Source of the DNA: Bacillus sp. (in: firmicutes)
Lineage (GTDB): Bacteria; Bacillota; Bacilli; Bacillales; Cytobacillaceae
Direction of reading: 5' to 3'
NCBI GenBank assembly: GCA_039832695.1
Contig: JBDOMM010000038.1
Location: 265-64,264, forward strand
DNA: 64,000 nt
This document shows, one piece after another, positions 30,870 to 44,541 of the stretch. Position numbers and translations under genes: made by a program. Numbering within the stretch: position 1 is the first letter of the stretch; each line of letters begins with the position of its first letter. The notes below the pieces were generated by a model that was not told where the DNA came from, did not search any database, and saw only the letters and a program-made list of their open reading frames with translations.

Positions 30870-31057
30870 CTTGTCTTCCTCTCTTTTGACAATAAATAAA
30901 TTTTTTGTCCATAAGTTCAATCTTATCTCTCAAACGTGAACTTTGCAATATTTCAATTCACCAGCATAGATTATTTCTTTTATCCAGGTAAGGAAAAGAA
31001 TATAATGTATGTAAGCGGAAATAAATTGCCGTTAAATGTTCGTACTTGGGAGGAACC

Positions 31058-31309
31058 ATGGATACTACAACAATCGATTTAGATTTATTACGAAAAGCGT
31101 TCGAAGCTGTCCTCGTACAGAATAACGTGTCCTTCAGAAAAATTGGTATTGCAGAAGAAGGCGACCAACTATTATTTTTGTATGAAGGAAAGGACGAAAA
31201 AGTTCATGTTTTTAAATGGAGTAAAGCATCAAGTGTAGGAGTAAGTATTGGTGTACTTGCTCAAAGTGTATTAATGCCAATTATTCCTCATCTTCGCTTA
31301 TTATCTTAA
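31058..31309 (+). CDS. Small hypothetical protein
   Basis: GGAGG RBS before ATG 31058; followed by a hairpin terminator. Confidence 0.65.
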   Translation: MDTTTIDLDLLRKAFEAVLVQNNVSFRKIGIAEEGDQLLFLYEGKDEKVHVFKWSKASSVGVSIGVLAQSVLMPIIPHLRLLS

Positions 31310-31440
31310 TTCATATACACTTACCATCACCATGGTAGGTGTTTTCTTTTATCTACCTTTCACTTCCACCGATTCCCACATCCATTTTATTGGAAAATGC
31401 CCTATAATTAAGTATGACTTTGAGAAAGGAGATGACACTT

Positions 31441-33180
31441 ATGAACCGAAGTAAAAAAATAGTTTCAAAGCTTATTCCGCTAGTAACAGCGTTATTAATT
31501 ATCATCTCAGGCATCATTTGGTTTATTCAATCGACTAATAGCCAAACGACAATCCCTTTCTCTTCAGTAGAAGAAACCATAAAAGCACAAAACGGAAAAC
31601 CCGTTAACTTAATAGAACAACCAGACGGTAGTTTATATATAAAAGCAGGAAATGAAGAGTACGTATCCCATGTTCCACCTAACAGCCAAATGGTGGATAA
31701 GTTGATAGAAAAATACAATATTGAATATTCTTATTCCACTAGCAGCCGATATGGAAAATGGATAATGCTAGGTGTCATTTTACTATTTACCGGGGCAGCT
31801 ATTACATTGCAAAAAACTAAAGGTGGATTCAGCCTTCGTAACTCGATGAAAAGCAGTGTAGCTAAATCTCGTCCATTGCCTACCATTTCATTAAAAGATG
31901 TAGGTGGGCTTGGTGAAGAAATGAAAGAGGAAATACTGCAAACACTTTCTACGTTAAAGGAACCTGAACGGGCATTGAAATTAGGCATTAAACCTCCTAA
32001 AGGGATCTTACTTTACGGACCTCCCGGGACTGGTAAAACATTATTAGCACAAGCAATTGCTCGTGAACTGAATGCATCCTTTTTCTCTTCAAGTGGCTCT
32101 GCATTTAATGAACTTTTTGTTGGAGTTGGTGCGAGTCGAGTTCGGTCCCTGTTCCAAGCAGCTAGAAAACAGGCACCAGCAGTAATATTCATAGATGAAG
32201 TGGATGCTTTAGCCGGAAGACGTAAAGCTCATGGCGGGGAAGAAGCAGAAAAAACTCTAACTGAACTACTTGTACAGCTTGATGGAGGCCATATAAATGA
32301 TGGGATCTTATTTGTTGCCGCAACAAATAGAAAAGATATGTTAGATGAAGCCTTCCTTCGTCCCGGAAGAATAGATTTTTCTTTCCATGTACCACTACCA
32401 GATACAAAAGGAAGAAAAGAAATTATTGATATTCATACTAGAGGGAAAGCACTAGCTGAGGATGTTTATGCTTCATTAGATGATTTGGCAGAAAGTACCT
32501 CAGGCTTCTCTGGAGCAGAATTACAATCCCTTTTTGAAACCGCAAGCAGACGAGCGGTTCGAAACAATCAAGAAACCATAAAAAAACAAGACCTTGATTA
32601 TGCATTAGATCGAACCATTTTAGGAAGTACGTCTCGTTCTTTAAAGGATCAAGCAACCAAACGGAGAGTTGCGATACACGAGGCTGGACATGCAATTGTC
32701 GCATCCCTAACAAAGCCTGGTTCTGTTAGAAAAGCAACAATTATTCCACGTGGAGAAGCGCTTGGTTATGTTGCACCTATCCCCCAAGAGCTCCATTTAT
32801 CCACACATTCGGATTTACTTGACCGTGTTGCCATGGTGTTAGCAGGCGGAGTGGCAGAAAGATTGTTATTAGGTGAACATAGCATCGGCGTTAGCGGCGA
32901 TGTACAGCAGGCAAAACAACTGATTGAACAAATGGTTGATACTGGCTTACTCGAAGATGGCTTTACTTTGACTTTTAATAAAACTGACAAAGAAGCTAAA
33001 ATGCAGGAGCTTTTTGCAAAAGGCTTAGAAAAAGCGGAAAATTTGATTCAAACTCATTATGATCAGTATCAGCAATTAGTTGATGCATTATTAAAGAAAG
33101 AAACACTAGAAGGTTCCGAAGTAGAAGCCATTGTTCGGAACTCCACGAAATCAATAACTGAAGAACTTGTATTAGCCTAG
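31441..33180 (+). CDS. FtsH-like membrane AAA+ zinc metalloprotease (paralogue)
   Basis: 2 TM helices, GPPGTGKT, FVG pore loop, FIDEVD, ATNR..LD.A.LRPGR.D, HEAGH, SGD. Confidence 0.9.
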   Translation: MNRSKKIVSKLIPLVTALLIIISGIIWFIQSTNSQTTIPFSSVEETIKAQNGKPVNLIEQPDGSLYIKAGNEEYVSHVPPNSQMVDKLIEKYNIEYSYSTSSRYGKWIMLGVILLFTGAAITLQKTKGGFSLRNSMKSSVAKSRPLPTISLKDVGGLGEEMKEEILQTLSTLKEPERALKLGIKPPKGILLYGPPGTGKTLLAQAIARELNASFFSSSGSAFNELFVGVGASRVRSLFQAARKQAPAVIFIDEVDALAGRRKAHGGEEAEKTLTELLVQLDGGHINDGILFVAATNRKDMLDEAFLRPGRIDFSFHVPLPDTKGRKEIIDIHTRGKALAEDVYASLDDLAESTSGFSGAELQSLFETASRRAVRNNQETIKKQDLDYALDRTILGSTSRSLKDQATKRRVAIHEAGHAIVASLTKPGSVRKATIIPRGEALGYVAPIPQELHLSTHSDLLDRVAMVLAGGVAERLLLGEHSIGVSGDVQQAKQLIEQMVDTGLLEDGFTLTFNKTDKEAKMQELFAKGLEKAENLIQTHYDQYQQLVDALLKKETLEGSEVEAIVRNSTKSITEELVLA

Positions 33181-33274
33181 CCTAGAAGAGACTAACTTTA
33201 GTTAGTCTCTTTTTTAAAGAAGTTTTGTTTTATGTATTACGTGGTAAACTATAGGGAAACTTCGAATAAGGGAT

Positions 33275-33703
33275 GTGATAGGGTTGTTAGGTAAAAAGTT
33301 CCTAATTGAAAAAGAACAGAAAGTATACAATAAGGAAGCAAGTAATTACATCGACAATCCGAAAAAAATTTCAGGGTTGTTGAATAAGGCTATAACCAAA
33401 GCAAATTTGCGGTATAAGGGCTTAGGGGAAGCACGCGAAAAACTGCAGTTATTATTTGACTTGATAAAGGCTTACTCTAAAGGCGAATATAAAGATGTTT
33501 CCAAAAGTACAATTATTACGGTTATTGGTGCCATTCTCTATTTTGTCTCTCCATTTGATTTCGTTCCTGATTTTGTGATTGGTCTTGGGATTATCGACGA
33601 TGCAGCCGTGATTGGCTATACCGTTAAAAAGATAGCTGGAGAACTAGAAGCATTCCAGCAGTGGAAAAATCCAAAAGTAATAAATAAAACCCCGCTTGAA
33701 TAA
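33275..33703 (+). CDS. DUF1232/YkvA-family protein
   Basis: YFVSPFDFVPDF..GLG..DDAAV motif. Confidence 0.85.
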   Translation: MIGLLGKKFLIEKEQKVYNKEASNYIDNPKKISGLLNKAITKANLRYKGLGEAREKLQLLFDLIKAYSKGEYKDVSKSTIITVIGAILYFVSPFDFVPDFVIGLGIIDDAAVIGYTVKKIAGELEAFQQWKNPKVINKTPLE

Positions 33704-33718
33704 TAAGCGGGGTTTTCC

Positions 33719-34267
33719 TTAACTGGCGAATCTATGGTTGCCTATTTCTTCTGTAACCGGTCTTGTACGAAGCCATTTGCTGTCTGTTTGATCTGGATTA
33801 AAAAAATAAAGAGCTTTAGTCACTTTTCCATCCTTCTCAATTGCTTCTTCTACAGCTTTTTTAGCTTCCTCCCCTGCCGGTTTATTAATCATGCCATTGT
33901 CAACGGGTTGAAATTGTTTATCTTGATAGATTACCTGCTGAATAGAATCTGGAAATTGTTCATTATCTACTCGGTTAAGCACAACCGCAGCGACAGCAAC
34001 CTTACCTTGATAAGGTTCTCCCTTTGCTTCAGCTGTTACTAACCTAGCTAACAAGTCCTTTTCTTTCTCCGTAATTTTCATTTTTTTCAATTCATCTTTG
34101 GAATTCCCGTATTGTACAGAGATTTCTCTTAGCGTTTCACGTTTTGTCACTTTATGAACCTTAGTAGGATCTATATTTTTAGCATCTACGGTTAAAGGTA
34201 CATTAGCATAATTCAGCAGGATGAAGAAGACAACGACAGATAATAAAAAAGAAACCATTCGTTTCAT
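33719..34267 (-). CDS. Cell wall hydrolase (SleB/CwlJ Hydrolase_2 family, YkvT-like)
   Basis: LLARLVTAEAKGEPYQGKVAVAAVVLNRV, QFQPV, IGNHRF; signal peptide and LysM-like remnant. Confidence 0.9.
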   Translation of the reverse strand: MKRMVSFLLSVVVFFILLNYANVPLTVDAKNIDPTKVHKVTKRETLREISVQYGNSKDELKKMKITEKEKDLLARLVTAEAKGEPYQGKVAVAAVVLNRVDNEQFPDSIQQVIYQDKQFQPVDNGMINKPAGEEAKKAVEEAIEKDGKVTKALYFFNPDQTDSKWLRTRPVTEEIGNHRFAS

Positions 34268-34437
34268 TACATGTCCCCCTTTATCCATTTCATTTTTTTC
34301 AACCTACTAACCGTAACATGAATAGCTGTCATGTCCAACCACAAAAACTTTCCATGGAAAAAAAGGAAAAGCAAGGAAGCATCCTTGCTTTTCTATGAGG
34401 CAATATTAATACCTTACCTCAATATATTTTTCATTGA

Positions 34438-34584
34438 CTACCATCTAAAGCAAGCTGCACCTACGATAATTAAAAGAATGAATAATACAACGATTAAAGC
34501 GAATCCACCGCCAAAACCGCAACCTCCATATCCGTAACCACCGTAGCCACAGCAACCTCCACCATAACCATATCCACCAAACAT
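34438..34584 (-). CDS. YjcZ/SscA-family sporulation microprotein (48 aa)
   Basis: Hand-translated GY-rich N-terminus plus [18 protein letters not shown]; GGAGG RBS. Confidence 0.9.
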
Positions 34585-34606
34585 TTAAATTCCTCCTTTT
34601 ATATTA

Positions 34607-34711
34607 TTAATAGAATGGGGTACACCAAGAAGCACCAATAATGATTAACAAAATAAATAAAACGACTAGTAGGGCAAATCCGCCGCCATAGCCACCCACT
34701 GCACCAGACAT
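34607..34711 (-). CDS. YjcZ/SscA-family sporulation microprotein (34 aa)
   Basis: Hand-translated [34 protein letters not shown]; GGAGG RBS. Confidence 0.9.
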   Translation of the reverse strand: MSGAVGGYGGGFALLVVLFILLIIIGASWCTPFY

Positions 34712-34950
34712 TTACATTACCTCCTTTTCTTAATTCCTTATATCTATATTCACCTAGATAAAAATGTGCGATAGACATATATCCCTAATAGTACATTTTG
34801 TAAAAAAAGAATAAGCCCATCTTTATGCTATAGGCAGATGCCATTTTGGTATTACTGTCCCTTAGTTATATCGAGTCTCTTTACAAAGTTGACTTTTATC
34901 TGCAGATTCCTTACCATGATTGACATCAACCATAGTTAGGGGTCAATTCA

Positions 34951-35787
34951 TTGAGATCATTTGCAACCATTATAATCTTAATTTTTATGGTCGCTTATCG
35001 AATCGGAAAAAAATTATCCAAGGATGGGAAAGGTCAATCACTGATTAAAATTGGTCACCGGGGAGCAGCCGCATATTGTCCGGAGAATACTTATGCTTCT
35101 TTTAATAAAGCGTTAGAGTTAGGGATAGATTACCTTGAAATCGACATTCAGATGACAAAAGATGGGGAAATTGTTGTAATCCATGATCCAACGGTTAATC
35201 GAACCACAAATGCAAAGGGAAGAGTGAAGGATTTTACCTTAAGGGAAATACAAAAACTCGATGCAGGCAGTTGGTTTCATCCTACATTTTCAAACGAAAG
35301 AATCCCTTCATTTTCTGAATTCCTTGATACGTATGCTGGTAAAGTGGGATTATTAATTGAATTAAAAAAGCCCTCTTTGTATCCAGGCATTGAAGAAAAG
35401 GTAGCCAGTGAACTATTGAAGAGAGGACTTGATACAGGGGAGGATGATCAAATTATTGTTCAATCCTTTGATCAAAATGCAATGAAAAACTTCCATCACC
35501 TCCTTCCAAAAGTACCAATTGGCATTTTAGTAAAGAAAGCAGCGATTAACGGTTTGTCACATAAAGAACTTTCATCCTATTCAAATTACGCTACCTATGT
35601 AAATCCAAAAGTGACAATGGTTAATAAAAGACTCATCCGAAGAATTCACCATTATGGTTTTAAAACCATGATTTGGACAGTGAATAAAAATAGTGATATT
35701 CGCCGGTTAAAGCATTTCTCTGTTGATGGAATGATAAGTGACTATCCAGATTTACTCTCCAATAAAAAAGACAGCTCACCTTATTAG
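34951..35787 (+). CDS. Glycerophosphodiester phosphodiesterase (GDPD)
   Basis: IGHRGAAAYCPENT, LEIDIQMTKDG..VVIHD, IELK. Confidence 0.92.
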   Translation: MRSFATIIILIFMVAYRIGKKLSKDGKGQSLIKIGHRGAAAYCPENTYASFNKALELGIDYLEIDIQMTKDGEIVVIHDPTVNRTTNAKGRVKDFTLREIQKLDAGSWFHPTFSNERIPSFSEFLDTYAGKVGLLIELKKPSLYPGIEEKVASELLKRGLDTGEDDQIIVQSFDQNAMKNFHHLLPKVPIGILVKKAAINGLSHKELSSYSNYATYVNPKVTMVNKRLIRRIHHYGFKTMIWTVNKNSDIRRLKHFSVDGMISDYPDLLSNKKDSSPY

Positions 35788-35804
35788 GTATGAGCTGTCT
35801 TTTT

Positions 35805-36638
35805 TTATAGGAAAACTACTAGATATATAACTATAGCAAGTACAATTCGATACAAAGCAAACGGCATTAACTTAATTTTATTGATCAGTTTTAAGAAAAA
35901 GCGAATCGATAATAACGCAAAAATAAAAGCACTAATAAATCCAGCAATAAAGAACGGAAGAGCATCCAAAGTCATATATTGCCAGTTTTTTAACAACGAA
36001 AGCAAACTTGCCCCAGCCATAATCGGTACAGCCATAATAAAGGTAAAATCAGCTGCTGCACGGTGGCTCATCCCCACTAAAACACCACCTGAGATGGTTG
36101 AACCCGAACGAGAAAAGCCTGGCCAAAGCGAGAAGCATTGAAATAGCCCAACAGCTATAGCTTGTCCATAGGATATTTGATCAACTGTTTGTACTTTAGG
36201 TTTTTTTGGTCCAATTAAATCAGCAAGAATCATAAACACGGCACCAATAACTAACCCAATTAATACAGTAGCCGTGGAAAATAAATGATCATCAATATAA
36301 TCGTTAAAGAGTACACCTAAAACTCCTGCAGGAATTAAGCCTACTATTACATGGGTTAGTTTTAGACGATTTTCTTTCTTTTCATGCCCTTTTCTAAATC
36401 GTCCTAATCCTAACAAGTCAAAAAAACGTTCCCAAAAGGTAACAACAACTGCAAGGATAGATCCAAGCTGAATAACCACCTTAAAAGTATTGGCTCCATG
36501 TTGTGTTAGAAATTTTTCAGATTTAAGCCATAAATCGTCAACAATGATCATGTGTCCGGTTGAAGAAACAGGTGCGAATTCTGTAGCACCTTCCACTAGT
36601 CCCAGAATAATTGCTTTAATATACAAAAGTAATTCCAT
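35805..36638 (-). CDS. uppP: Undecaprenyl-diphosphate phosphatase
   Basis: GLVEGATEFAPVSSTGH, PGFSRSGSTI. Confidence 0.95.
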   Translation of the reverse strand: MELLLYIKAIILGLVEGATEFAPVSSTGHMIIVDDLWLKSEKFLTQHGANTFKVVIQLGSILAVVVTFWERFFDLLGLGRFRKGHEKKENRLKLTHVIVGLIPAGVLGVLFNDYIDDHLFSTATVLIGLVIGAVFMILADLIGPKKPKVQTVDQISYGQAIAVGLFQCFSLWPGFSRSGSTISGGVLVGMSHRAAADFTFIMAVPIMAGASLLSLLKNWQYMTLDALPFFIAGFISAFIFALLSIRFFLKLINKIKLMPFALYRIVLAIVIYLVVFL

Positions 36639-36775: not shown

Positions 36776-37957
36776 TTATTGAATAATTCCCAATCTTATT
36801 GCCTTCACTGCTACTTCCGTTCTATTTTGTGCGTTTAGTCTTTTCATGATATTGGATATGTAATCTCTAACTGTAAACTCACTTAAATAAAGCTTTAAAG
36901 CAGCTTCCGCAGTGGAAGCACCTTCAGCCAGCAGTTTAATAATTTCAATTTCTCTAGGTGATAAGGATATCGAATCCGCTTCTGTATATTTTGGTTTCTT
37001 TATATCTGCTCCAATAAATTTTGATAAGAGTTCTCCTGAGCTTTGCCCAAACTTCATTAATGCCGGGAATAAGCTTGTATCAACCGTAAATTGTTTTCCG
37101 GGACCTTTATCTAGAACGACACCACCAATTATTTTCCCCTCTTCTGGTACATAAATCGGGACTATCATTAATGAGGTGAGTCCAAATTTTTCTACATATT
37201 TTCCAGGGAGTGCATTCTCGGCAACAGGGATATAAATAGGCTGAAAATTTTTCATTTCATGTCCCTGTGACTTTAATTTCACAAGACTCTCATTAAGAAC
37301 TGGAATATTACTTATTTTTTCGGCAATCGCTTGAATCTCATTAGTATCTAAATGATGACCAAACAACCCCACCCCTACACTTTCTTTATTGGTAAACTTA
37401 AAAAGGGCACATCGCTCAAAGGGGAGAAAATAGCCAAAACCAAAGGAAATATTTTCAACTGATTCCTGAAAATTTTGCGAGCGAATGATCCACTCATTAA
37501 ATAAGATAACTGCATCTTTCCAAATACTTGACGTCTCCTTTTCGGAATTAAACAGCATCACTTCGCCAATTTTTGAAAATAAATAATGGACAGAAGGATG
37601 CAATTTAGAGGAGTAGGCGATTCTAGATTTTAATACCTTATGGGCTGCGTTTTCCAACAGGTTCAAATGAAATATTAAAGCCTCAGGTTCTGGTTTCCGT
37701 CCGAAATGGGAATACCAATCATCTTGCAGTTCATTTAACATTCTATAGATATCAACTGTTTCATCATTAATTAACTGAAAAAATTTTAAAAGAGACTCAC
37801 TAATAAATTCAAATACAGCAGTTGATTTTTTCTTTGTATTTTTAAGGGATTGGAGCATTAATCTCCATTCCTCATTAAGGTCTATTTGATATTGATATAA
37901 AAGTTTAACAGCATCTTTTAAAAGATTATCCAAATGGTGGTTTAATGACCTCGACAT
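36776..37957 (-). CDS. Large LuxR-type C-terminal HTH regulator with GAF-like sensory region
   Basis: C-terminal LSPREIEIIKLLAEG...SEFTVRDYISNIMKRL..QNRTEVAVKAIRLG; no receiver domain recognised. Confidence 0.85.
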   Translation of the reverse strand: MSRSLNHHLDNLLKDAVKLLYQYQIDLNEEWRLMLQSLKNTKKKSTAVFEFISESLLKFFQLINDETVDIYRMLNELQDDWYSHFGRKPEPEALIFHLNLLENAAHKVLKSRIAYSSKLHPSVHYLFSKIGEVMLFNSEKETSSIWKDAVILFNEWIIRSQNFQESVENISFGFGYFLPFERCALFKFTNKESVGVGLFGHHLDTNEIQAIAEKISNIPVLNESLVKLKSQGHEMKNFQPIYIPVAENALPGKYVEKFGLTSLMIVPIYVPEEGKIIGGVVLDKGPGKQFTVDTSLFPALMKFGQSSGELLSKFIGADIKKPKYTEADSISLSPREIEIIKLLAEGASTAEAALKLYLSEFTVRDYISNIMKRLNAQNRTEVAVKAIRLGIIQ

Positions 37958-38130
37958 TTCACACACTCTCCATTCAATGAACATCTACGCTGTTATTTTT
38001 TAGTAATAAACCCATAGAATGTATCTATACATAATTCCGTTAATCACGTCAAAATTCCTGCTTATATTCTATGAATTTCTCTATTTCGCAGGATAATATT
38101 CTTAGAAAACCTCCAAAAAACAGGAAAAAC

Positions 38131-38148
38131 TTCCTACAAATGTAGGGA
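38131..38148. promoter_or_regulatory. Inverted repeat, candidate LuxR-family binding site
   Basis: TTCCTACA-AA-TGTAGGGA just upstream of TTTCTA-N17-TAAAAT, between the divergent genes. Confidence 0.5.
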
Positions 38149-38251
38149 TTTCTAAATTTACAAACTTATCTTAAAATTGTGACGAGTAGTGTAAGCATTT
38201 ATATTTTTCCTGCTTACCCTTTCAAAAAATGAAATAAAAGGAGGAAAGAGA

Positions 38252-38863
38252 ATGAATTTAGCAACAGAAACAGTCATTATTGGGGGGCAAACGGTAAAGA
38301 AAAGGCTTTTATTTGCGTTATTAGGTGGATTTGTATTCTTTGGTTCACTACTGGGCCTGTTTGGAGTAACCGGTGTAGCGGCCGCTGTGCCACTAAGTGG
38401 TGTTGGGGAATTTACTGTAAGTTTCGATAAAATGGTAGGAAAAGACTTTCAATTATTAGGCGGAATGGCTGATAGTGTTTCACGACAAAATAACCCTGTC
38501 GCTGTTAATAAGATTAAACACGCTACTATTTATGGCTTAGAAATTTCTAAAGAAGTCTCTATTCCAGGACTGCCAACTTTCAGAGTAGTAATCGAATCAA
38601 AAAATCCTGATAATCCAGTTGAAATTGACGGGTTATTACAAAAAGCTACTGTTGTTTCAGGTGATGCTGTGTTTACTAACATGGAAATGAAAGAAACATA
38701 TGTTGCTGATAAAGATCCATTAACACAAGCAGCTGAGGGCTTCACTCAAAGTGCAAACACAATTACTATTAACAAAGGTGTTTTAAAAACCTTATACCTC
38801 TGGCAGGATAAAGTATCTTTATCTAATATGAAAGTGTTCTTTGAAATTCCAGACAAGAAATAA
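38252..38863 (+). CDS. Secreted beta-rich protein, DUF6230-like
   Basis: GGQTVKKR + hydrophobic stretch + GVAAA leader, similar to recalled actinobacterial DUF6230 leaders; beta-pattern body. Confidence 0.65.
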   Translation: MNLATETVIIGGQTVKKRLLFALLGGFVFFGSLLGLFGVTGVAAAVPLSGVGEFTVSFDKMVGKDFQLLGGMADSVSRQNNPVAVNKIKHATIYGLEISKEVSIPGLPTFRVVIESKNPDNPVEIDGLLQKATVVSGDAVFTNMEMKETYVADKDPLTQAAEGFTQSANTITINKGVLKTLYLWQDKVSLSNMKVFFEIPDKK

Positions 38864-38892
38864 CCATAACCATCATAGAAAATTGAGTAAGG

Positions 38893-39342
38893 ATGATAAA
38901 AATGAATTCTACTTATTCAAAACGTGAGAGGTTTAAGAATTGGAGAGCAAGGCGCCCTTTTTGGGGGGCGACCTTGTCATCCCTTTCAGGACTAATCATT
39001 TTATACGTACCAGCACAGCTTTATGAACTTGCAGCAACCCCTGGTAGCACATTGTTTGCAGGCTTCTTTCTAGGAGGCTTAACAATGCTAATGGGCGTTT
39101 TGGCATTTTTTATGCCTAGATTATCAACATTGCTTGGAATTTTAGCTATGTTCGCGGCAGTTCTTTCCATTTTAGGTGCATTAGGAGGGCTTTTCATCGG
39201 AACCATTCTCGGAATCATTGGTGGAGCAATGATGATTGCTTGGAAACCTGAGATTGCACAAAGGGAAACAAGTATACAATCACAACCTGATCAAATAGCT
39301 GAAAAAGAAGTGGCATCTGGAAAGGACGTTTTACCGGATTAA
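38893..39342 (+). CDS. Membrane protein, DUF6114-like
   Basis: WRARRPFWG and LGGLFIGTILGIIGGAMMIAW motifs; 4 TM. Confidence 0.75.
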   Translation: MIKMNSTYSKRERFKNWRARRPFWGATLSSLSGLIILYVPAQLYELAATPGSTLFAGFFLGGLTMLMGVLAFFMPRLSTLLGILAMFAAVLSILGALGGLFIGTILGIIGGAMMIAWKPEIAQRETSIQSQPDQIAEKEVASGKDVLPD

Positions 39343-39345
39343 AAT

Positions 39346-39936
39346 TTGATTGCATTCGCAGAAATGGTGATGGCTTTGAAACATAGAAACAGTACTTATA
39401 AAATCCTAATTATTTTGATTACTACATTAGGCGGATTACTCTTCTTAACAAAGGATAGTTATGCCAGTAACCCAACAGTAGTTGGATTTATCATTGAAGC
39501 TAGCAAATTGGAAGGAACACTACAAAATCCAGTAATGACTGTTGGTAATACTGCTGTTGAAAAAAATCGTTCCATGTTGGAATTAAAATTTGATAACCTT
39601 TCATCAGAGGACTTAGTGATCAGAAAAATAATTAAAACCTCAAAAGGTTTGGTCACTACCACTATGACTTCTAAAGAAAAAATTATTTTCCAAAATCTAA
39701 CTTTATCCGTGACCAACGCAGAATTCAGCGAACCTTTTGACCCTGAAATCGGAAACATTGGTCTAAAAAACGTAAAACTTTTAGCACATAATGTGAAAAC
39801 AGATAGCTCTCAGCTCCCCCAATTTCAACTAAGTTTTAATGAGGGTGGCCAGGTGGAGTTAGAACCAAAAAGTGAGGCGGAGCTTCTTCAAATGAAAGCA
39901 GGTTTAGAACAATTAATTTCAAATACTAATCAATAA
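39346..39936 (+). CDS. Secreted beta-rich hypothetical protein, possible distant paralogue of 38252
   Basis: Signal-peptide-like N-terminus (true start possibly TTG 39376); GFIIEASKLEG resembles GEFTVSFDKMVG. Confidence 0.65.
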   Translation: MIAFAEMVMALKHRNSTYKILIILITTLGGLLFLTKDSYASNPTVVGFIIEASKLEGTLQNPVMTVGNTAVEKNRSMLELKFDNLSSEDLVIRKIIKTSKGLVTTTMTSKEKIIFQNLTLSVTNAEFSEPFDPEIGNIGLKNVKLLAHNVKTDSSQLPQFQLSFNEGGQVELEPKSEAELLQMKAGLEQLISNTNQ

Positions 39937-39978
39937 AAAGAAGCGATGCTATAGAAAGCATCGCTTCTTCCATTTACA

Positions 39979-41151
39979 TTAATCATTAATAATTCTCATC
40001 ACACGTCCATTAAATTTTTTCTGATAGTAGCCTTGTGTCATATCGGCAATGGCAATACCTGTTGAGCTTTGTGAACCAATGAATTTTCCACCGCCAAGAT
40101 AAATTCCTACATGCCCATCTATTTTATATGTGTCAAAGAAAACCAAATCACCTGGTCGTGCCTCACTAACTGCAACCCTCGTTCCAGTATTCTTTAATAG
40201 ATCTGTATGTGCACCTACTTTTATTCCTGCTTGTGCAAACGCCCAAGCTACAAATGCAGAACAGTCGAATCTTCCCTGAGAAATATCGTACTCATTTCTC
40301 CCCCCTCCAAAAACATAAACAGAATTGCCAATATACTTTTCTCCTGCATGGATAACCATGTTTATTGCTTCATTGGATGTCGTGGGGATGGCTAAATTTA
40401 AACTATATGTATGCGCTTCTAAAGGACTGTTTACCTCTACAGTAAGAGCAGTATCTTTCTGAAGTAATTCAGCCTTCTCTAATAATTTTTCTTGCTCTCT
40501 CTGTTTTAACTCTTCTTTTAAAGCATCATTCTGTTGTTTTTGTTCTAAGATTTGCGACTGCATTCCTTCGAGTTCTATTTTTAGATTTTTTAAATCACCT
40601 AGTTTTTTCTCTACCAACTCTTGTTTCTTTTCAAGATCTGCTTGATCATCTTTATGTTGTTGTATTAGATCCTGGTCGGCCTCTACGATGGTGGCAACAG
40701 CACCTAAGCGGTCAACAAAATCACGAAAGCTAGAGGACCCTAGTAGAACATCAAAATAACTAACATTTCTTCCGCTCACCTGTAATGCCAAGGCTCTCTT
40801 TTTTAATACCTCATTTCTTTTGGCCACTCTTTCCTTTACGAGCGTAACCTCCTGTTGCAACATTTCCACTTCCAACTGAGTGGATTTTACTTTTTCTTCA
40901 GTTTCGGTAATCATATTACTATTATCCTTAATCGCTTGTTCGACCCTATTAATTTGCTCTGTAATTTTTTCCAATTCATTTTGAACTTGTAAAAGTTCCA
41001 CATTATTTTTGGAAATCTCCGTTTGAACATTCGAACGTTGCTCCTGAATTGGGGTTATTTCCTCTGCCTTAGTTTTTTGTGTTGGAAAGATGCATATGGT
41101 TCCAAGCCCAACTATTATCGCCGCACTGACTACTGCAACCTTTTTAATCAA
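39979..41151 (-). CDS. Coiled-coil NlpC/P60 (C40) peptidoglycan endopeptidase, CwlO-like
   Basis: Signal peptide, long heptad coiled coil, YVFGG..FDCS and GHVGIYLG; WalR-like box TGAAAT-N5-TGTAAT at 41316-41300. Confidence 0.88.
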   Translation of the reverse strand: MIKKVAVVSAAIIVGLGTICIFPTQKTKAEEITPIQEQRSNVQTEISKNNVELLQVQNELEKITEQINRVEQAIKDNSNMITETEEKVKSTQLEVEMLQQEVTLVKERVAKRNEVLKKRALALQVSGRNVSYFDVLLGSSSFRDFVDRLGAVATIVEADQDLIQQHKDDQADLEKKQELVEKKLGDLKNLKIELEGMQSQILEQKQQNDALKEELKQREQEKLLEKAELLQKDTALTVEVNSPLEAHTYSLNLAIPTTSNEAINMVIHAGEKYIGNSVYVFGGGRNEYDISQGRFDCSAFVAWAFAQAGIKVGAHTDLLKNTGTRVAVSEARPGDLVFFDTYKIDGHVGIYLGGGKFIGSQSSTGIAIADMTQGYYQKKFNGRVMRIIND

Positions 41152-41470: not shown

Positions 41471-42070
41471 TCACGGCGTTTTAACGAGTTCTTTAATACT
41501 GTTTTTTCCCCGCTCGACAAGATTTAAATGAGTATTCCTTGCAAGTTTAATATACTCTTTTCTTACCTCGAACCATGCGTGTCTTCGTTCGCGGGCAAAT
41601 GCAATGCTAGATTCGGCATTTTTTTCAAAGTTATCTTCCAAACGATCAACCATATGGAAAATAGATTTAATTGGAGTTAATGCCAATTTTTCTAACTGCC
41701 CTGATACTTCTTTTAACTGATTCTTAAGTTCTTGACGGTCATTAGAGAAAATTTCTTCATCCTTCGGTTCATCCTTAGCAGCATTAAATTGATGCATTAA
41801 TTCGGATACCATTTCTTTGTTTGTTTTCTTGGACTGACTATACAATTTTGCAATTGAAGTTCTATATTGCTTATTAAACTTAATAACCTCTTTTAATGCA
41901 TTAATATATGCGTCCTCACGATTTTCTCTAAGCTGTTGTGCACGCTCACGTGACAATTCAAACTGATCCCAAAATGTGTTAACAAATGATCCTGCTTTCA
42001 TCGATTCCTCTACTATTGGAGTTGCTTTTTCATCAACAGCTGGGACCTTTTCAATTTTCTTCTGCACCAT
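41471..42070 (-). CDS. Phasin-like granule protein (PhaP-like)
   Basis: All-helical, Cys-free; FVNTFWDQF resembles the Bacillus PhaP N-terminus; overlaps the phaQ end. Confidence 0.6.
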   Translation of the reverse strand: MVQKKIEKVPAVDEKATPIVEESMKAGSFVNTFWDQFELSRERAQQLRENREDAYINALKEVIKFNKQYRTSIAKLYSQSKKTNKEMVSELMHQFNAAKDEPKDEEIFSNDRQELKNQLKEVSGQLEKLALTPIKSIFHMVDRLEDNFEKNAESSIAFARERRHAWFEVRKEYIKLARNTHLNLVERGKNSIKELVKTP

Positions 42071-42491
42071 CGTCCTTCCTCCTCCTTTTTCCATTGTTTT
42101 CTTTCTCTATGGGATCCTTCTTTTGAAATGAAGGAATATAGAGCTCAAGGAAACTGGTATACATCTTAAAGAATTGATCTAAGAGGGATTGGTACGTTTC
42201 TAGTTGGTTCGCATAGCCTTTTAAATATGTAACACCAGCTTTTGTAATAGAGTATCTTCTTTTTGCGGGACCACTCCCTGTTGTATCCCATTCTGATGAA
42301 ACAAGCTCGTCTTTTTCTAGTTGCCTAAGTAATCTGTATAAATTCCCTTGGTCAAGTGTTTTGAACCCGAATGTCTCCAATCTTTGGCTAAGTTCATAAC
42401 CATGGAGTGAAACTTTACTAAGAAGCAATAAAATAAATGGCAGCACAAAATTTTTTGATGGATTAACAGCTGGATTGTCTTGGTTCACCAT
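42051..42491 (-). CDS. phaQ: PadR-family PHB-responsive repressor
   Basis: LHGYEL.Q.L..FGF..LDQGNLYRLLRQLEKD.L.SS.WDT...GPA.R.Y matches recalled PhaQ. Confidence 0.85.
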   Translation of the reverse strand: MVNQDNPAVNPSKNFVLPFILLLLSKVSLHGYELSQRLETFGFKTLDQGNLYRLLRQLEKDELVSSEWDTTGSGPAKRRYSITKAGVTYLKGYANQLETYQSLLDQFFKMYTSFLELYIPSFQKKDPIEKENNGKRRRKDDGAEEN

Positions 42492-42639
42492 ATCTTTATC
42501 ACCTCACCTATATGTATTTTACACCTATAAGTAATATTTTGTCAATACAGTAAATAAATATGAATAAATGCCAAATTAAAAGGTTTACAATATACTAAAA
42601 TTGGTTATAAACTAAATAAAAATGAAAAGGTGGTGTAAA

Positions 42640-43422
42640 ATGGAAAAATCTAAATGGAGCAAAATGGGAATCCCATACTTACATTTTGGAAGTGGAGAAC
42701 CATTGGTACTTATCCATGGGTTAGGTGAAGTGAAAGAAGGATGGAAAAATCAATTCGAATTAGCTGATCAATTTGAGTTAATTATTCCCGATTTGAGAGG
42801 TCATGGTGAGTGTTCAAAAATAGATGGTATTACGATTCACAACTTTGCTTCTGACATTATTGGACTATTAAAAGAGTTAGAAATTGAAAACGCTCACATA
42901 CTCGGTTACTCTATGGGTGGAGCCGTTGCACAAGAAATTTACCGCCAAGTCCCCAACCTCTGCCGTTCTCTCTTGTTGGTTAGCACCTTTCACTATTTCC
43001 CAAAAAAGCTAAAAAGACTATTATATAACAATCGAAAGGCTAAGTTTGAAGCTGTTACAGCTGCTGGTAAACAAACCGATTTTATTTCAAAAATGGCTCT
43101 ATACTCATGGAATAAAGAAACGAAAGAAATATTTAGCCACTCATTTCACCCAAAACATCACATATTTCTACAATCCTTGAACACATGTCTGGATGTAAAT
43201 AATTTGTCCTTACTGCCAAAAATAAACATTCCAACGTTAATCATAGGTGGCCAGTACGACTCTGTATTACCTGTTTGGATTCAAGCATGCATGCACAAGT
43301 TAATTCTGCCTTCCGAATTTATTATCATGAGAAATACTGGGCATATTGCCAAGTTAGAAGCCAAAGACAGATTTAACTACTTGCTCCGCAAGTTCCTAAT
43401 TCAGCAAAAGTCAGTTGCATAA
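42640..43422 (+). CDS. Alpha/beta hydrolase, candidate intracellular PHA depolymerase/esterase
   Basis: HGLG oxyanion motif, DLRGHG, GYSMGG nucleophile, YD and TGH triad residues. Confidence 0.75.
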   Translation: MEKSKWSKMGIPYLHFGSGEPLVLIHGLGEVKEGWKNQFELADQFELIIPDLRGHGECSKIDGITIHNFASDIIGLLKELEIENAHILGYSMGGAVAQEIYRQVPNLCRSLLLVSTFHYFPKKLKRLLYNNRKAKFEAVTAAGKQTDFISKMALYSWNKETKEIFSHSFHPKHHIFLQSLNTCLDVNNLSLLPKINIPTLIIGGQYDSVLPVWIQACMHKLILPSEFIIMRNTGHIAKLEAKDRFNYLLRKFLIQQKSVA

Positions 43423-43461
43423 AAAACGGGAAGGGTAATGTCCTTCCCGTTTTTTATGCAT

Positions 43462-44520
43462 TTAGTGTGAATGAGATGAAAGCCATTGGTCAGCAAATTT
43501 GGCAAACATTCCTGTTAAAGCAAGGGAAACATGTCCGCCTTCAAATACCTGATATGTTTTATCTTCACTTGATATCATATTCATAATTGGCACACTTTGC
43601 TGTTCTAATACTAGAGTATCTCTAGATGTCGAAAAAACAAAAGTCGGGCACTCAATATTTTTTAAATCTACTTTTCTGCCACCGATTTCTAATTCACCTT
43701 TTAGTAGTTTATTATCTTTGTAGAAATCATTAAATAACTGTTTAAAGGCTGCACCTGCAAACGAAGCTGTATCCTTTGTCCATTTATCCATCCTGCGCCA
43801 TTTTTCTACATACTCAGGATCGTGGGCCCGGGTTATTAGGTTAACCCAAGGACTGATATAAACGGGCGAAAGCCCTCTAAACATGAGGTACATATATTCC
43901 GATGGAATTACCCCATACACATCAGAAAACCGGTTAAAGTCCATCGCACCCTTTTGTAATCCTTTTAACCACTTATGTGGAACAATCCCAACACTAAAAT
44001 CAATCGGAACGGTTGCAAGAACTAGATTTCTGATTGGTAGTTTCGTAATAGAGGTAAAAATGGCTGAAATGGTTCCTCCTAGGCAATAACCAACCATCGA
44101 AATACCCTTTGCTCCTGAATGTCTAAGTGCCCGTTTTACAGCATTTTCTAAGTAATCAATGATATAATTATCAAGGGTTATATCACGATCTTCATATCCT
44201 GGTGAACCCCAGTCTAAAAAATAAACATCATAGCCTCGCCCTGTTAAACCACCCACAACACTGCTACCCTCACCAATGTCTAAAATATATGATTTATTAA
44301 GCAGTGAATAGACTAAGAATATAGGAATTTCATATCTTTTATCTTTAGCAGGATGATAATATAAGGTGGATTTATTCTTTTTCCAAATTATTTCTCTTGG
44401 TGTTGGAGTAATATCTGGTTTAGGCTCTGTAAGAACCTTATATACTTGATTCCATCTTGCAGTTTCTTTTTCTATATCAAGCTGGGGAATAAAATTAGGA
44501 CCCAGTGCTTTTATACTCAT
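43462..44520 (-). CDS. phaC: Class III/IV-type PHA synthase catalytic subunit
   Basis: TPREIIW, YSLLNKSYILD, LDWG, GYCLGG catalytic Cys, RD and GGH triad. Confidence 0.88.
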   Translation of the reverse strand: MSIKALGPNFIPQLDIEKETARWNQVYKVLTEPKPDITPTPREIIWKKNKSTLYYHPAKDKRYEIPIFLVYSLLNKSYILDIGEGSSVVGGLTGRGYDVYFLDWGSPGYEDRDITLDNYIIDYLENAVKRALRHSGAKGISMVGYCLGGTISAIFTSITKLPIRNLVLATVPIDFSVGIVPHKWLKGLQKGAMDFNRFSDVYGVIPSEYMYLMFRGLSPVYISPWVNLITRAHDPEYVEKWRRMDKWTKDTASFAGAAFKQLFNDFYKDNKLLKGELEIGGRKVDLKNIECPTFVFSTSRDTLVLEQQSVPIMNMISSEDKTYQVFEGGHVSLALTGMFAKFADQWLSSHSH

Positions 44521-44541
44521 CCTCATTCTCACCTTTCACAT

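What the first reader, a model, noticed from the sequence alone, without database searches (positions are those of the whole stretch)
38252..39936. DUF6230-DUF6114-like three-gene operon: candidate undescribed surface fibre or lipid-handling system
Two exported beta-rich proteins flank a 4-TM glycine-zipper membrane protein, under a dedicated divergent regulator and convergent with a peptidoglycan endopeptidase. The leader and WRARRPFWG motifs match a gene set I recall mainly from Actinobacteria, where members carry loose cholesterol-esterase labels. No catalytic triad is visible here. The layout (major subunit, membrane anchor or assembly factor, minor subunit) resembles a pilus/fibre system or an envelope-spanning hydrophobic-ligand conduit. 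To my knowledge the function is not established.
Basis: partly seen in the sequence, partly recalled or inferred. Interest (0 to 1): 0.66.

Follow-up and report, generated by a model that had tools for sequence, protein, structure and literature searches.

The report
Alkane-inducible-type envelope protein operon (DUF6230/DUF6114)
This is a real three-gene operon for two exported beta-sheet proteins and a small membrane protein; it corresponds to the alkane-induced "P16" locus of Geobacillus, so it probably handles very greasy compounds at the cell envelope, but its mechanism has not been shown.

Summary
Window 38252-39936 (+) carries three co-oriented genes.

- **g1:** DUF6230, 55 bits.
- **g2:** DUF6114, 99 bits.
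- **g3:** no Pfam hit.
- **Flanks:** a divergent GAF/GerE(LuxR) regulator and a shared terminator.

New findings:
1. g3 is a divergent DUF6230 paralogue (hhalign 99.7%, E 8e-27).
2. g1 is the counterpart of Geobacillus thermoleovorans P16. P16 is an abundant, insoluble-fraction protein whose 45-residue leader is cleaved and whose gene is induced by long-chain alkanes (PMC2676291).
3. DUF6230 directly followed by DUF6114 is a conserved pair in low-GC and high-GC loci.
4. Relatives add a sortase, an LPxTA-anchored DUF6230 paralogue and wall-anchored GDSL lipases.
5. A conserved palindrome lies about 44 bp upstream of the inferred transcription start.
6. Soil and rice-paddy RNA libraries cover exactly g1-g3, with g1 deepest in three of four runs.

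No catalytic residues are conserved, and Foldseek finds no PDB match.

Best reading (about 0.42): an inducible envelope module that binds or passes very hydrophobic substrates. A fibre remains untested. The NlpC/P60 neighbour is not part of the module. It is a new member of a catalogued, poorly understood kind. Interest 0.55.

The parts
36776..37984 (-). One-component regulator: N-terminal sensor region with a GAF-like domain plus a C-terminal GerE/LuxR helix-turn-helix. It is divergent from g1.
   Evidence: Pfam GerE 55.5 bits and GAF 19.5 bits, below the cut-off. GAF scores 32.8 bits, above the cut-off, in orthologue L057. PDB sequence matches cover only the helix-turn-helix, residues 340-401. 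A divergent copy is present in 10 of the 11 genome loci (the eleventh is too short) and in many low-GC metagenome loci.
38133..38146 (.). Conserved 14-bp palindrome CCTACAAATGTAGG, the candidate operator of the LuxR-type regulator. Its centre lies about 44 bp upstream of the inferred transcription start.
   Evidence: It is kept in all aligned Neobacillus loci and, in degenerate form, in Geobacillus, Heyndrickxia and Scopulibacillus loci. It appears as inverted repeat I4. The operator role and its position relative to the start are inferred.
38172..38205 (+). Promoter region. It holds a conserved -10-like TAAAAT (38172-38177) within the conserved block TTATCATAAAATTGTGACGA. The consensus scan offers the alternative TTGTGA-17-TATATT (38177-38205).
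   Evidence: Alignment of intergenic regions and promoter scan. RNA-library contigs begin at 38197-38214, with zero depth over 38003-38169.
38188..38220 (+). Hairpin in the 5' untranslated region, with arms AGTGTAAGCA and TGCTTACCCT.
   Evidence: Inverted repeat I6. The AAGC...GCTT arms recur in related loci. No Rfam family matches. Function not tested.
38252..38863 (+). g1: DUF6230 protein of 203 aa and counterpart of Geobacillus P16. The leader is residues 1-45 (38252-38386), with predicted cleavage A43-A44-A45|V46. The mature beta domain is 158 aa (38387-38860).
   Evidence: Pfam DUF6230 55.2 bits. It is 54% identical to the Geobacillus locus protein. Its predicted mature N-terminus VPLSGVGEFTVSFDKM matches the Edman sequence VPISGVGEFXVTFDKL of P16 at 12 of 15 defined positions by hand alignment; one search gives the corrected numbering (PMC2676291). 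The AF2 model is all-beta, with pLDDT 77-92 in the core. It has the highest RNA contig depth in three of four runs.
38902..39342 (+). g2: DUF6114 polytopic, glycine-rich membrane protein of 146 aa (listed as an ORF from 38893). It has a cytoplasmic W-R-x-R-R-P-F-W-G motif followed by about four hydrophobic spans.
   Evidence: Pfam DUF6114 99 bits. Conservation is shown and hydropathy. It always lies directly downstream of a DUF6230 gene.
39364..39936 (+). g3: divergent DUF6230-superfamily paralogue of 190 aa (listed as an ORF from 39346). It has a 34-residue signal peptide (SYA|SNP), a beta domain and a C-terminal amphipathic helix.
   Evidence: No direct Pfam hit. The family is small, with 58 representatives among 1.84 billion proteins. 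Distant members score above the DUF6230 cut-off: P0205 29.8 bits and P0209 33.8 bits. hhalign of the broad g3 family against the broad DUF6230 family gives 99.7%, E 8e-27 over 173 columns. The two HMMs detect each other's window protein. AF2 gives pLDDT 90-94 in the core and a helix at 177-194.
39936..39971 (.). GC-rich hairpin shared by the convergent g3 and NlpC/P60 genes, acting as a terminator in both directions.
   Evidence: Terminator scan: 15-pair stem. RNA contig depth falls to zero at 39840-40173.

Best explanation
This is an inducible cell-envelope module for dealing with very hydrophobic compounds.

Shown or strongly supported:
- g1, g2 and g3 form one transcription unit. It runs from a promoter just downstream of a conserved palindrome to a shared terminator, and g1 is usually the most abundant message.
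- g1 and g3 are paralogous DUF6230-fold beta proteins exported by the Sec pathway.
- In the Geobacillus counterpart P16, the 45-residue leader is removed, yet the mature protein stays with the insoluble or membrane fraction and accumulates to Coomassie-visible levels when cells grow on long-chain alkanes.
- g2 (DUF6114) is the obligate membrane partner of DUF6230 across phyla.

Inferred:
- The GAF-LuxR regulator binds the palindrome and activates transcription from a class II-like position when it senses a hydrophobic compound or its effect on the membrane.
- The mature g1 and g3 beta domains stay in the wall and membrane zone, docked directly or indirectly on g2.
- There they bind very hydrophobic molecules such as long alkanes or long-chain esters and hand them towards the membrane. 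The handover would be conceptually like the relay of haem through the wall by Isd proteins.
- The domains are non-enzymatic binding or structural modules.

The window carries the minimal version: it has no sortase, no wall-anchored paralogue and no lipase.
For: Families and paralogy.

Conserved pair and synteny across Bacillales and high-GC loci.

Counterpart of P16: plus PMC2676291. That paper shows a cleaved 45-aa leader by Edman sequencing and recovery in the insoluble fraction. It also shows transcript-level induction by C10-C34 alkanes, stronger with chain length, and no induction by palmitate, tributyrin, trimyristin, DCPK or paraquat.

Link to alkane metabolism:
- The P21 orthologue GK2770 sits next to the alkane monooxygenase GkR2loxI inside an alkane and beta-oxidation cluster (PMC10867098).
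- The same adjacency is echoed in metagenome locus L072, which has P21-like DUF6230, then DUF6114, then an RNR-small-chain-like gene.

Surface location: 15 of 17 long DUF6230 paralogues carry an LPxTA signal, a hydrophobic span and a basic tail. Sortase genes lie just upstream.

Lipid link: LPDTA/G-anchored GDSL lipases lie beside the module in 11 loci of several sequence types.

Non-enzymatic: across 87 unique DUF6230 sequences the only invariant residues are F54, V56, F66 and L128. Mature g1 has no Cys and one non-conserved His.

Regulation: the palindrome and the -10 block are conserved.

Expression: RNA-library contigs cover 38197-39877 only. Depth is zero over the upstream spacer and near zero over the regulator. 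g1 depth exceeds g2 and g3 depth in three of four runs.
Against: - No ligand binding, transport or phenotype has been shown for any family member, and knock-outs failed in Geobacillus (PMC2676291).
- Alkane induction could be an indirect membrane-stress response.
- Foldseek finds no significant PDB match for either model, so similarity to lipid-binding folds is not demonstrated. Weak LolA, Bet v 1, START and TULIP hits have probability at or below 0.12 and TM below 0.2.
- Nothing among the window genes examined relates to alkane oxidation. No sortase or GDSL-lipase homologue occurs anywhere in the window.
- The RNA evidence comes from assembled contigs of roughly 94%-identical relatives, which are a poor measure of abundance.
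- The g1-g2 and g2-g3 contacts are inferred from synteny only.
Confidence: 0.42

Rival explanations
1. Surface fibre or coat. g1 would be a self-polymerising major subunit in the manner of TasA or a pilus, for example by exchange of its conserved N-terminal strand. g3 would be a minor or tip subunit, and g2 the membrane assembly platform or anchor. In relatives the LPxTA paralogue would be the wall-anchored base.
For: - The layout is an abundant subunit, a membrane protein and a paralogue with a variable tail.
- Mature P16 lacks its membrane span yet is insoluble (PMC2676291).
- The first residues of the mature protein are the best-conserved part of the family: G52, F54, V56, G63 and F66.
- Relatives carry a wall-anchored paralogue with its own sortase.
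- g1 message exceeds g2 and g3 message in three of four runs.
Against: - No sequence or fold match to TasA/camelysin, pilins or BslA.
- No SipW-type peptidase was seen in the window or among the neighbouring genes scanned.
- P16 and P21 run as monomers on SDS-PAGE (PMC2676291).
- In the AF2 monomer the first long strand is an integral, confident part of the fold.
- No oligomer modelling was possible.
Confidence: 0.2
2. Envelope-stress protection. The module would be a membrane or wall reinforcement switched on by solvent-like perturbation, analogous in logic to LiaIH or Psp. The DUF6230 proteins would shield the membrane, with no role in substrate uptake.
For: - Induction comes late, only with membrane-active long alkanes, and with cell swelling (PMC2676291).
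- g2 is a small, glycine-rich polytopic membrane protein.
- The module occurs in many non-hydrocarbon-degrading soil Bacillaceae and in Actinobacteria-like loci whose surroundings are housekeeping genes.
- It is strongly expressed in ordinary soil and rice-paddy RNA libraries.
Against: - P21 lies next to alkane oxidation genes (PMC10867098).
- Wall-anchored lipases recur beside the module, which points to substrate acquisition rather than pure defence.
- Paraquat and other lipids do not induce P16 or P21 (PMC2676291).
Confidence: 0.18
3. Secreted lipolytic enzyme. g1 would be a non-classical cholesterol or long-chain esterase, like the Streptomyces enzymes that gave the family its label.
For: - The N-termini of P16 and P21 resemble the purified S. 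lavendulae cholesterol esterase (PMC2676291, citing Nishimura & Sugiyama 1994).
- A 'novel family of cholesterol esterases' from actinomycetes is cited in PMC4098958 (Xiang et al. 2007). I could not read that paper here.
Against: - No Ser, His, Asp or Cys is conserved across the family.
- A canonical high-GC member scoring 174 bits has no histidine in its mature part.
- g1 has no GxSxG or GDS motif, no Cys and one variable His.
- Kato et al. found negligible full-length similarity and rejected the esterase assignment.
- Expression is at structural-protein level, and the protein is in the insoluble fraction.
- A separate true lipase of the GDSL family is encoded next to the module in relatives.
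Confidence: 0.07
4. Secreted antibacterial protein with a polytopic immunity protein, under a LuxR-type regulator.
For: The gene pattern fits: a small secreted protein, a small multi-span membrane protein and a LuxR-family regulator.
Against: - The product is cell-bound and very abundant (PMC2676291).
- Paralogues are covalently wall-anchored in relatives.
- The locus sits at a stable chromosomal position across genera, with no export or processing genes among the neighbours examined.
- The regulator has no autoinducer-binding domain.
Confidence: 0.03

Closest known systems
P16 (and paralogue P21) of Geobacillus thermoleovorans B23; GK3040 and GK2770 of G. kaustophilus HTA426 (Kato et al. 2009, PMC2676291; PMC10867098)
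   Same: - DUF6230 protein of about 200 aa with a 45-residue leader and the same mature N-terminus, VP[IL]SGVGEF.V.FDK.
- 54% identical to a Geobacillus locus protein.
- Same neighbours: a divergent GerE-type regulator and a downstream DUF6114 gene.
   Different: - The window has a third gene, g3, a DUF6230 paralogue. The Geobacillus locus read here lacks it and has a Staygreen-family gene at that position.
- Alkane inducibility has not been tested for this organism.
- No alkane-oxidation genes were seen among the window genes examined.
- The published work did not describe DUF6114, the regulator or the operon.
Streptomyces 'cholesterol esterase' (S. lavendulae, Nishimura & Sugiyama 1994; 'novel family', Xiang et al. 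2007)
   Same: It is the source of the label on actinobacterial family members. Kato et al. report N-terminal similarity to P16 and P21. High-GC loci here carry canonical DUF6230 (up to 176 bits) followed by DUF6114.
   Different: - Full-length similarity to P16 and P21 is negligible by BLASTP (PMC2676291).
- No catalytic residues are conserved.
- High-GC members have a Cys pair (LCQS ... C-F) that g1 lacks.
- I could not read the two primary papers or confirm that the enzyme is a DUF6230 protein.
Isd haem-relay system of Staphylococcus (wall-anchored NEAT-domain paralogues, dedicated sortase, membrane importer)
   Same: The logic is similar. Several paralogous beta domains occur in different anchoring states: sortase-anchored, free and tailed. 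In relatives there is a dedicated sortase and a membrane component encoded together.
   Different: There is no sequence or fold relationship. No ABC importer is present, no ligand is known, and the window version has no sortase or anchored paralogue. This is an analogy, not membership.
TasA-TapA-SipW biofilm fibre operon of Bacillus
   Same: It is a three-gene layout of a major exported beta protein, a membrane protein and a minor exported protein, with a cell-associated insoluble product.
   Different: - No Peptidase_M73/TasA domain.
- No PDB fold or sequence match, although TasA structures should be in the PDB copy searched (my knowledge).
- g2 is not a signal peptidase, since it has no conserved catalytic Ser, Lys or His.
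LuxR-family one-component activators with lux-box operators
   Same: It has a C-terminal GerE/LuxR helix-turn-helix. A palindromic site lies about 44 bp upstream of the inferred start, overlapping a weak -35, as for class II LuxR-type activation. This comparison rests on established knowledge of LuxR promoters.
   Different: The sensor is a GAF-like region of about 330 aa, not an acyl-homoserine-lactone-binding domain and not a receiver domain. Binding and the ligand are untested.

Membership tests
Pfam DUF6230 (PF19741) | Profile match above the gathering score, for g1 | tested here: met
   55.2 bits against a cut-off of 27.5, residues 53-195.
Pfam DUF6230 (PF19741) | Profile match above the gathering score, for g3 | tested here: not met
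   g3 has no direct hit. Distant members of the g3 family pass the cut-off: P0205 29.8 bits and P0209 33.8 bits. hhalign gives 99.7%, E 8e-27. So g3 belongs to the superfamily but is not a Pfam member by score.
Pfam DUF6114 (PF19609) | Profile match above the gathering score, for g2 | tested here: met
   99 bits against a cut-off of 27.9, over the full model 1-106.
P16/P21 alkane-inducible proteins (Geobacillus) | Sequence orthology, including the experimentally determined mature N-terminus | tested here: met
   54% identity over the full length to the Geobacillus locus protein. 12 of 15 defined Edman positions are identical (hand alignment, PMC2676291). The regulator and DUF6114 context is the same.
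P16/P21 alkane-inducible proteins (Geobacillus) | Induction by long-chain alkanes and recovery in the insoluble or membrane fraction | not testable with these tools
   There is only environmental RNA evidence that the operon is expressed.
Serine esterase/lipase ('cholesterol esterase') | Conserved nucleophile-His-acid triad or a GxSxG/GDS motif | tested here: not met
   No conserved Ser, His, Asp or Cys in 87 unique sequences. No motif in g1 or g3.
TasA/camelysin fibres | Peptidase_M73/TasA domain or fold, with a SipW-type signal peptidase in the operon | tested here: not met
   No Pfam hit. No PDB sequence hit at E up to 10. No Foldseek hit at or below 1e-3. g2 lacks peptidase residues.
Sortase-assembled or sortase-anchored surface proteins | C-terminal LPXTG-type sorting signal and a sortase | tested here: not met
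   g1 and g3 have no LPxT motif. No sortase homologue occurs in the window. The feature is met only by paralogues in related loci.
Acyl-homoserine-lactone LuxR receptors / NarL-type response regulators | Autoinducer-binding domain or receiver domain N-terminal to the GerE helix-turn-helix | tested here: not met
   Only GerE and a weak GAF are found. PDB matches are confined to residues 317-402.
Known lipid-binding beta folds (LolA/LprG, Bet v 1/START, lipocalin, TULIP) | Significant structural similarity of the predicted fold | tested here: inconclusive
   Such folds appear only among non-significant Foldseek hits, with E at or above 0.05, probability at or below 0.12 and TM below 0.2. The models have mean pLDDT 70 and 74, and I could not inspect their coordinates.

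The most novel reading that the evidence does not exclude
The DUF6230/DUF6114 module could be a previously unrecognised way for Gram-positive bacteria to move extremely hydrophobic molecules through the thick wall. Candidates are long-chain alkanes and wax, sterol or other long-chain esters. Paralogous DUF6230 beta domains in different anchoring states would form a relay, or a hydrophobic lining, that hands substrate to the DUF6114 membrane protein. The states are sortase-anchored, free (g1) and tailed (g3). Wall-anchored GDSL lipases would feed the relay in the fuller versions. The unusually conserved, cleaved g1 leader would pair with DUF6114 during or after export.
Probability: 0.2. Interest if true: 0.85.

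Novelty: new member of a known kind. Interest (0 to 1): 0.55.

Why it matters
How Gram-positive bacteria take up long-chain alkanes and other very water-insoluble substrates across a thick hydrophilic wall is, to my knowledge, still poorly understood.

This locus ties several things together:
- Two Pfam families of unknown function.
- A 2009 protein-level observation, the alkane-induced P16 and P21.
- An old and probably misleading 'cholesterol esterase' label.
- A newly seen set of companions: a paralogous third gene, a GAF-LuxR regulator with a conserved operator, sortase-anchored paralogues and wall-anchored lipases.

That gives a compact, genetically tractable model. It consists of three genes, one regulator and one operator. 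It occurs in common soil Bacillaceae and appears well expressed in soil. It can be used to test whether there is a dedicated envelope route or coat for hydrophobic compounds, which is relevant to hydrocarbon bioremediation and lipid scavenging.

For genome annotation it supports three changes. The esterase label should be dropped from DUF6230 proteins. g3-type proteins should be recognised as DUF6230 relatives. DUF6230 and DUF6114 should be treated as a functional pair.

Tried and rejected
1. **TasA, BslA or pilin-like fold.** Foldseek against the PDB found nothing at or below 1e-3 for g1 or g3. Profile searches of PDB sequences found nothing meaningful.
2. **Fusion evidence that g2 and g3 interact.** High-GC DUF6114 proteins are often fused to a C-terminal beta domain of about 130 aa, which is a separate secreted protein in L086. 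That domain is not detectably related to g3 or g1 (hhalign 1.7% and 0.5%). It is a positional analogue only.
3. **The NlpC/P60 endopeptidase as part of the system.** Rejected, because the gene is absent or decayed in three related genomes and its RNA depth does not track that of the operon.
4. **A link to the neighbouring phaP/phaQ genes.** This adjacency occurs only in the Neobacillus group, not in the Geobacillus, Heyndrickxia or Scopulibacillus loci.
5. **A sporulation (sigma-K/GerE) promoter.** The CATA of the -10 block is not conserved, since the window has CTTA.
6. **Plasmid-borne copies, to get annotated actinobacterial context.** tblastn against PLSDB found none.
7. **Rfam element in the leader.** None found.
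8. **The primary cholesterol-esterase papers.** Neither is held in the library.
9. **Genome-collection scan.** Distant context came from the metagenome scan instead.
10. **Actinobacterial neighbourhoods.** These are housekeeping genes (ppiA, rhomboid, sortase, ABC exporters) and gave no functional hint.
Full report
**What is there**

The window is low-GC (about 0.35-0.39 across this region). Its closest named relative for g1 is Bacillus sp. SORGH_AS 510 at 97% identity, followed by Neobacillus species.

Three + strand ORFs occupy exactly the reported span:
- g1, 38252-38863, 203 aa.
- g2, listed from 38893. The more likely start is ATG 38902, because it lies 8 nt after an AAGGA ribosome-binding site and most homologues are 146 aa.
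- g3, listed from TTG 39346. The more likely start is ATG 39364, because homologues begin MV[MI]ALK.

A strong ribosome-binding site precedes g1. A 15-pair GC-rich hairpin at 39936-39971 separates g3 from the convergent gene.

Pfam places g1 in DUF6230 (55.2 bits) and g2 in DUF6114 (99 bits). g3 has no Pfam or NCBIfam family.

The divergent upstream gene (36776-37984, - strand) is a GerE/LuxR helix-turn-helix protein with a long N-terminal region and a weak GAF match. GAF scores above the cut-off in an orthologue. The convergent gene is a PcsB-type coiled coil plus NlpC/P60.

**g3 is a hidden paralogue of g1**

A first profile-profile comparison was only suggestive, at 17.5% probability, although the alignment was in register from the cleavage site.

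An exhaustive profile search showed that the g3 family is small, with 58 representatives among 1.84 billion proteins. Most distant members are 360-580 aa. They have the g3-like domain at the N-terminus followed by long low-complexity or helical-repeat tails.

Two of those distant members score above the DUF6230 gathering threshold across that domain, at 29.8 and 33.8 bits. With broader alignments, hhalign gives 99.7% probability and E 8e-27 over 173 columns. Each family's HMM also finds the other window protein.

So the operon encodes two DUF6230-fold proteins around one DUF6114 protein. AlphaFold2 models of both are all-beta with long strands, and g3 adds a C-terminal helix. Neither model has a significant match in the PDB.

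**The module elsewhere**

- In 10 of 11 Neobacillus/Bacillus genome loci the order regulator-g1-g2-g3 is kept. The eleventh is a 2-kb contig with no room for the regulator. The NlpC/P60 gene is missing in two loci and a remnant in one, so it is a neighbour and not a component.
- Geobacillus, Heyndrickxia and Scopulibacillus keep regulator-DUF6230-DUF6114. The last two also have a longer g3-type gene. Geobacillus has a Staygreen-family gene in that position instead.
- A metagenome scan with a DUF6114 alignment returned 77 loci. In nearly every one with upstream DNA, a DUF6230 gene directly precedes DUF6114. This includes loci with GC 0.64-0.72, where Pfam scores reach 176 and 123 bits.
- Many low- and mid-GC loci have two tandem DUF6230 genes. 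Fifteen of the 17 long copies end in LP[DSEL]TA, a hydrophobic span and a basic tail, which is a sortase sorting signal.
- A sortase gene lies upstream in five loci (Pfam-confirmed in four, 92-106 bits).
- LPDTA/G-anchored GDSL lipases (86-95 bits) sit beside the module in 11 loci of several sequence types.
- None of these extras is present in the window.

**Published evidence on an orthologue**

Kato et al. 2009 (PMC2676291) found two proteins, P16 and P21, that accumulate in Geobacillus thermoleovorans B23 grown on long-chain alkanes.
- Both are recovered in the insoluble fraction.
- Edman sequencing gave VPISGVGEFXVTFDKL for P16, after a 45-residue leader.
- Induction is at the transcript level and rises with alkane chain length. 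Palmitate, triacylglycerols, DCPK and paraquat do not induce.
- Knock-outs were not obtained.
- The authors noted N-terminal similarity to the Streptomyces lavendulae cholesterol esterase but negligible full-length similarity, and they rejected the esterase assignment.

The predicted mature end of g1 is A43-A44-A45|V46, giving VPLSGVGEFTVSFDKM. It also follows a 45-residue leader and matches the P16 sequence at 12 of 15 defined positions (hand alignment; numbering corrected). g1 is 54% identical to the DUF6230 protein of a Geobacillus locus with the same regulator and DUF6114 context.

A 2024 paper (PMC10867098) places the P21 orthologue GK2770 next to a newly characterised R2lox-type alkane monooxygenase, inside an alkane and beta-oxidation cluster. 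It calls P16 and P21 'alkane-inducible membrane transporters' and describes their AlphaFold models as a large beta barrel with an N-terminal helix.

Metagenome locus L072 echoes this arrangement: a P21-like DUF6230, then DUF6114, then an RNR-small-chain-like gene.

A full-text search for the two DUF names found one unrelated paper. I found no published description of the operon, DUF6114, the regulator or the sortase and lipase association.

**Regulation and expression**

The 267-bp spacer contains a 14-bp palindrome, CCTACAAATGTAGG (38133-38146). It is conserved in all aligned Neobacillus loci and is recognisable in the three other genera. A conserved block with a -10-like TAAAAT follows it.

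If transcription starts near 38184, the palindrome centre lies at about -44. That is the position typical of LuxR-type class II activators. This step is inference from established knowledge of LuxR promoters. The consensus scan also offers TTGTGA-17-TATATT, ending at 38205.

In four RNA-labelled soil and rice-paddy libraries, contigs cover 38197-39877 only. Depth is zero over 38003-38169 and near zero over the regulator. In three of the four runs g1 is deeper than g2 and g3: about 200 against 24, 356 against 30-71, and 200 against 90-119. In the rice-paddy run the depths overlap.

This supports one transcription unit with g1 as the main message. The caveats are that these are assembled contigs of roughly 94%-identical relatives, and that contig depth is a poor measure of expression.

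**Enzyme or not**

Across 87 unique DUF6230 sequences the only invariant residues are F54, V56, F66 and L128. No Ser, His, Asp or Cys is conserved. Mature g1 has no Cys, one variable His and no GxSxG or GDS motif. A canonical high-GC member has no His at all in its mature part.

A classical hydrolase is therefore very unlikely. DUF6114 likewise has no conserved catalytic-type residues; its invariant positions are Gly, Pro, Phe, Trp, Arg, Ala, Leu, Ile, Ser and Thr.

**Interpretation**

The best-supported reading is an inducible envelope module for very hydrophobic compounds. The exported DUF6230 paralogues stay in the wall and membrane zone and bind or pass such molecules. DUF6114 is their membrane partner. 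A GAF-LuxR activator controls the operon.

What is shown:
- The families, the paralogy and the conserved pairing.
- Leader cleavage, insolubility and alkane induction in the orthologue.
- Surface anchoring of paralogues, and lipase and alkane-oxygenase neighbours in relatives.
- Expression as one unit.

What is inferred:
- Ligand binding, the relay to the membrane, physical contact with g2, and the operator function.

I put this reading at about 0.42. The rivals are a self-assembling fibre or coat (0.20), a pure envelope-stress shield (0.18), a non-classical esterase (0.07) and a toxin-immunity pair (0.03).

**An unexplained feature**

The g1 leader is more conserved than its mature domain, with 74% against 66% mean pairwise identity. 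The conserved part includes the cytoplasmic stretch IIGGQTVKK. The g3 leader behaves normally, at 47% against 58%.

This suggests the g1 leader does more than target the protein for export. It may pair with the glycine-rich spans or the cytoplasmic WRxRRPFWG motif of DUF6114.

**Novelty and verdict**

The window instance is an ordinary member of catalogued families and a counterpart of a protein studied in 2009. I therefore rate it a new member of a known kind.

The kind itself remains mechanistically unknown, and the system-level picture assembled here appears undescribed. If the relay idea were right, it would be a new envelope transport principle for Gram-positive bacteria.

Interest 0.55.

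Noticed in passing
window 38252-38386 (g1 residues 1-45): The cleaved leader of g1 is more conserved than the mature protein (74% against 66% mean pairwise identity). It has invariant I9, G11, G12, T14, G26, F27, F29, G38, G41 and A43. The g3 leader is not conserved in this way (47% against 58%).
   Followed up: partly
window 41471-44532: A polyhydroxyalkanoate gene neighbourhood is present. It holds a PhaP_Bmeg phasin (100 bits), an overlapping PadR-type regulator (PhaQ-like) and two alpha/beta-hydrolase genes (42622-43422 and 43462-44532). The second hydrolase, at 356 aa, has the size of a class IV PHA synthase. The adjacency to the operon is kept only within the Neobacillus group.
   Followed up: partly
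window 39979-41151 (-): The PcsB-coiled-coil plus NlpC/P60 endopeptidase gene varies among close relatives. It is absent from L002 and L008 and reduced to a 39-residue remnant in L004. In the rice-paddy RNA library it is far more deeply covered than the operon.
   Followed up: partly
L012 6546-6995 (Geobacillus): A bacterial Staygreen-family gene (Pfam PF12638, 160 bits) follows DUF6114, where Neobacillus has g3. Staygreen proteins are best known as plant chlorophyll Mg-dechelatases. Its role here is unknown.
   Followed up: no
L083 4908-6275, L091 4866-6290, L085 181-1692; L086 2254-2952: In high-GC loci DUF6114 is often fused, through a Pro/Ser/Thr-rich linker, to a C-terminal beta domain of about 130 aa. 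In L086 that domain is a separate secreted protein. It has no Pfam family and no detectable relationship to DUF6230.
   Followed up: partly
L043, L058, L059, L067, L073 and L033-L036, L049-L050, L068-L071: These loci carry extended versions of the module. They add a sortase, LPxTA-anchored DUF6230 paralogues, LPDTA/G-anchored GDSL lipases (some with a bacterial surface Ig-like domain) and a further LPxTA protein of 529-720 aa with a weak DUF6801 match.
   Followed up: partly
window 38188-38220: A 10-bp-arm hairpin lies in the 5' untranslated region of g1. Its AAGC...GCTT arms recur in related loci, and it may be an mRNA stabiliser. No Rfam family matches.
   Followed up: no
window 37843 / 40528 (run X6): One contig of an RNA-labelled soil library joins 37843 to 40528 through 28 T-rich letters, skipping the start of the regulator gene, the whole operon and part of the P60 gene. 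It may be a strain lacking the module or an assembly chimera.
   Followed up: no
window 38902-39342 (g2 C-terminal tail): The otherwise variable cytoplasmic tail of DUF6114 keeps a short E-[VI]-A-[AST] motif in most Bacillales members, with E136 nearly invariant.
   Followed up: no
window 29292-36638: The upstream genes are housekeeping or envelope genes. They are peptide-chain release factor RF3, an FtsH-like AAA protease, a DUF1232 protein, a SleB-type cell-wall hydrolase, a glycerophosphodiester phosphodiesterase and undecaprenyl-diphosphatase (BacA/UppP).
   Followed up: no
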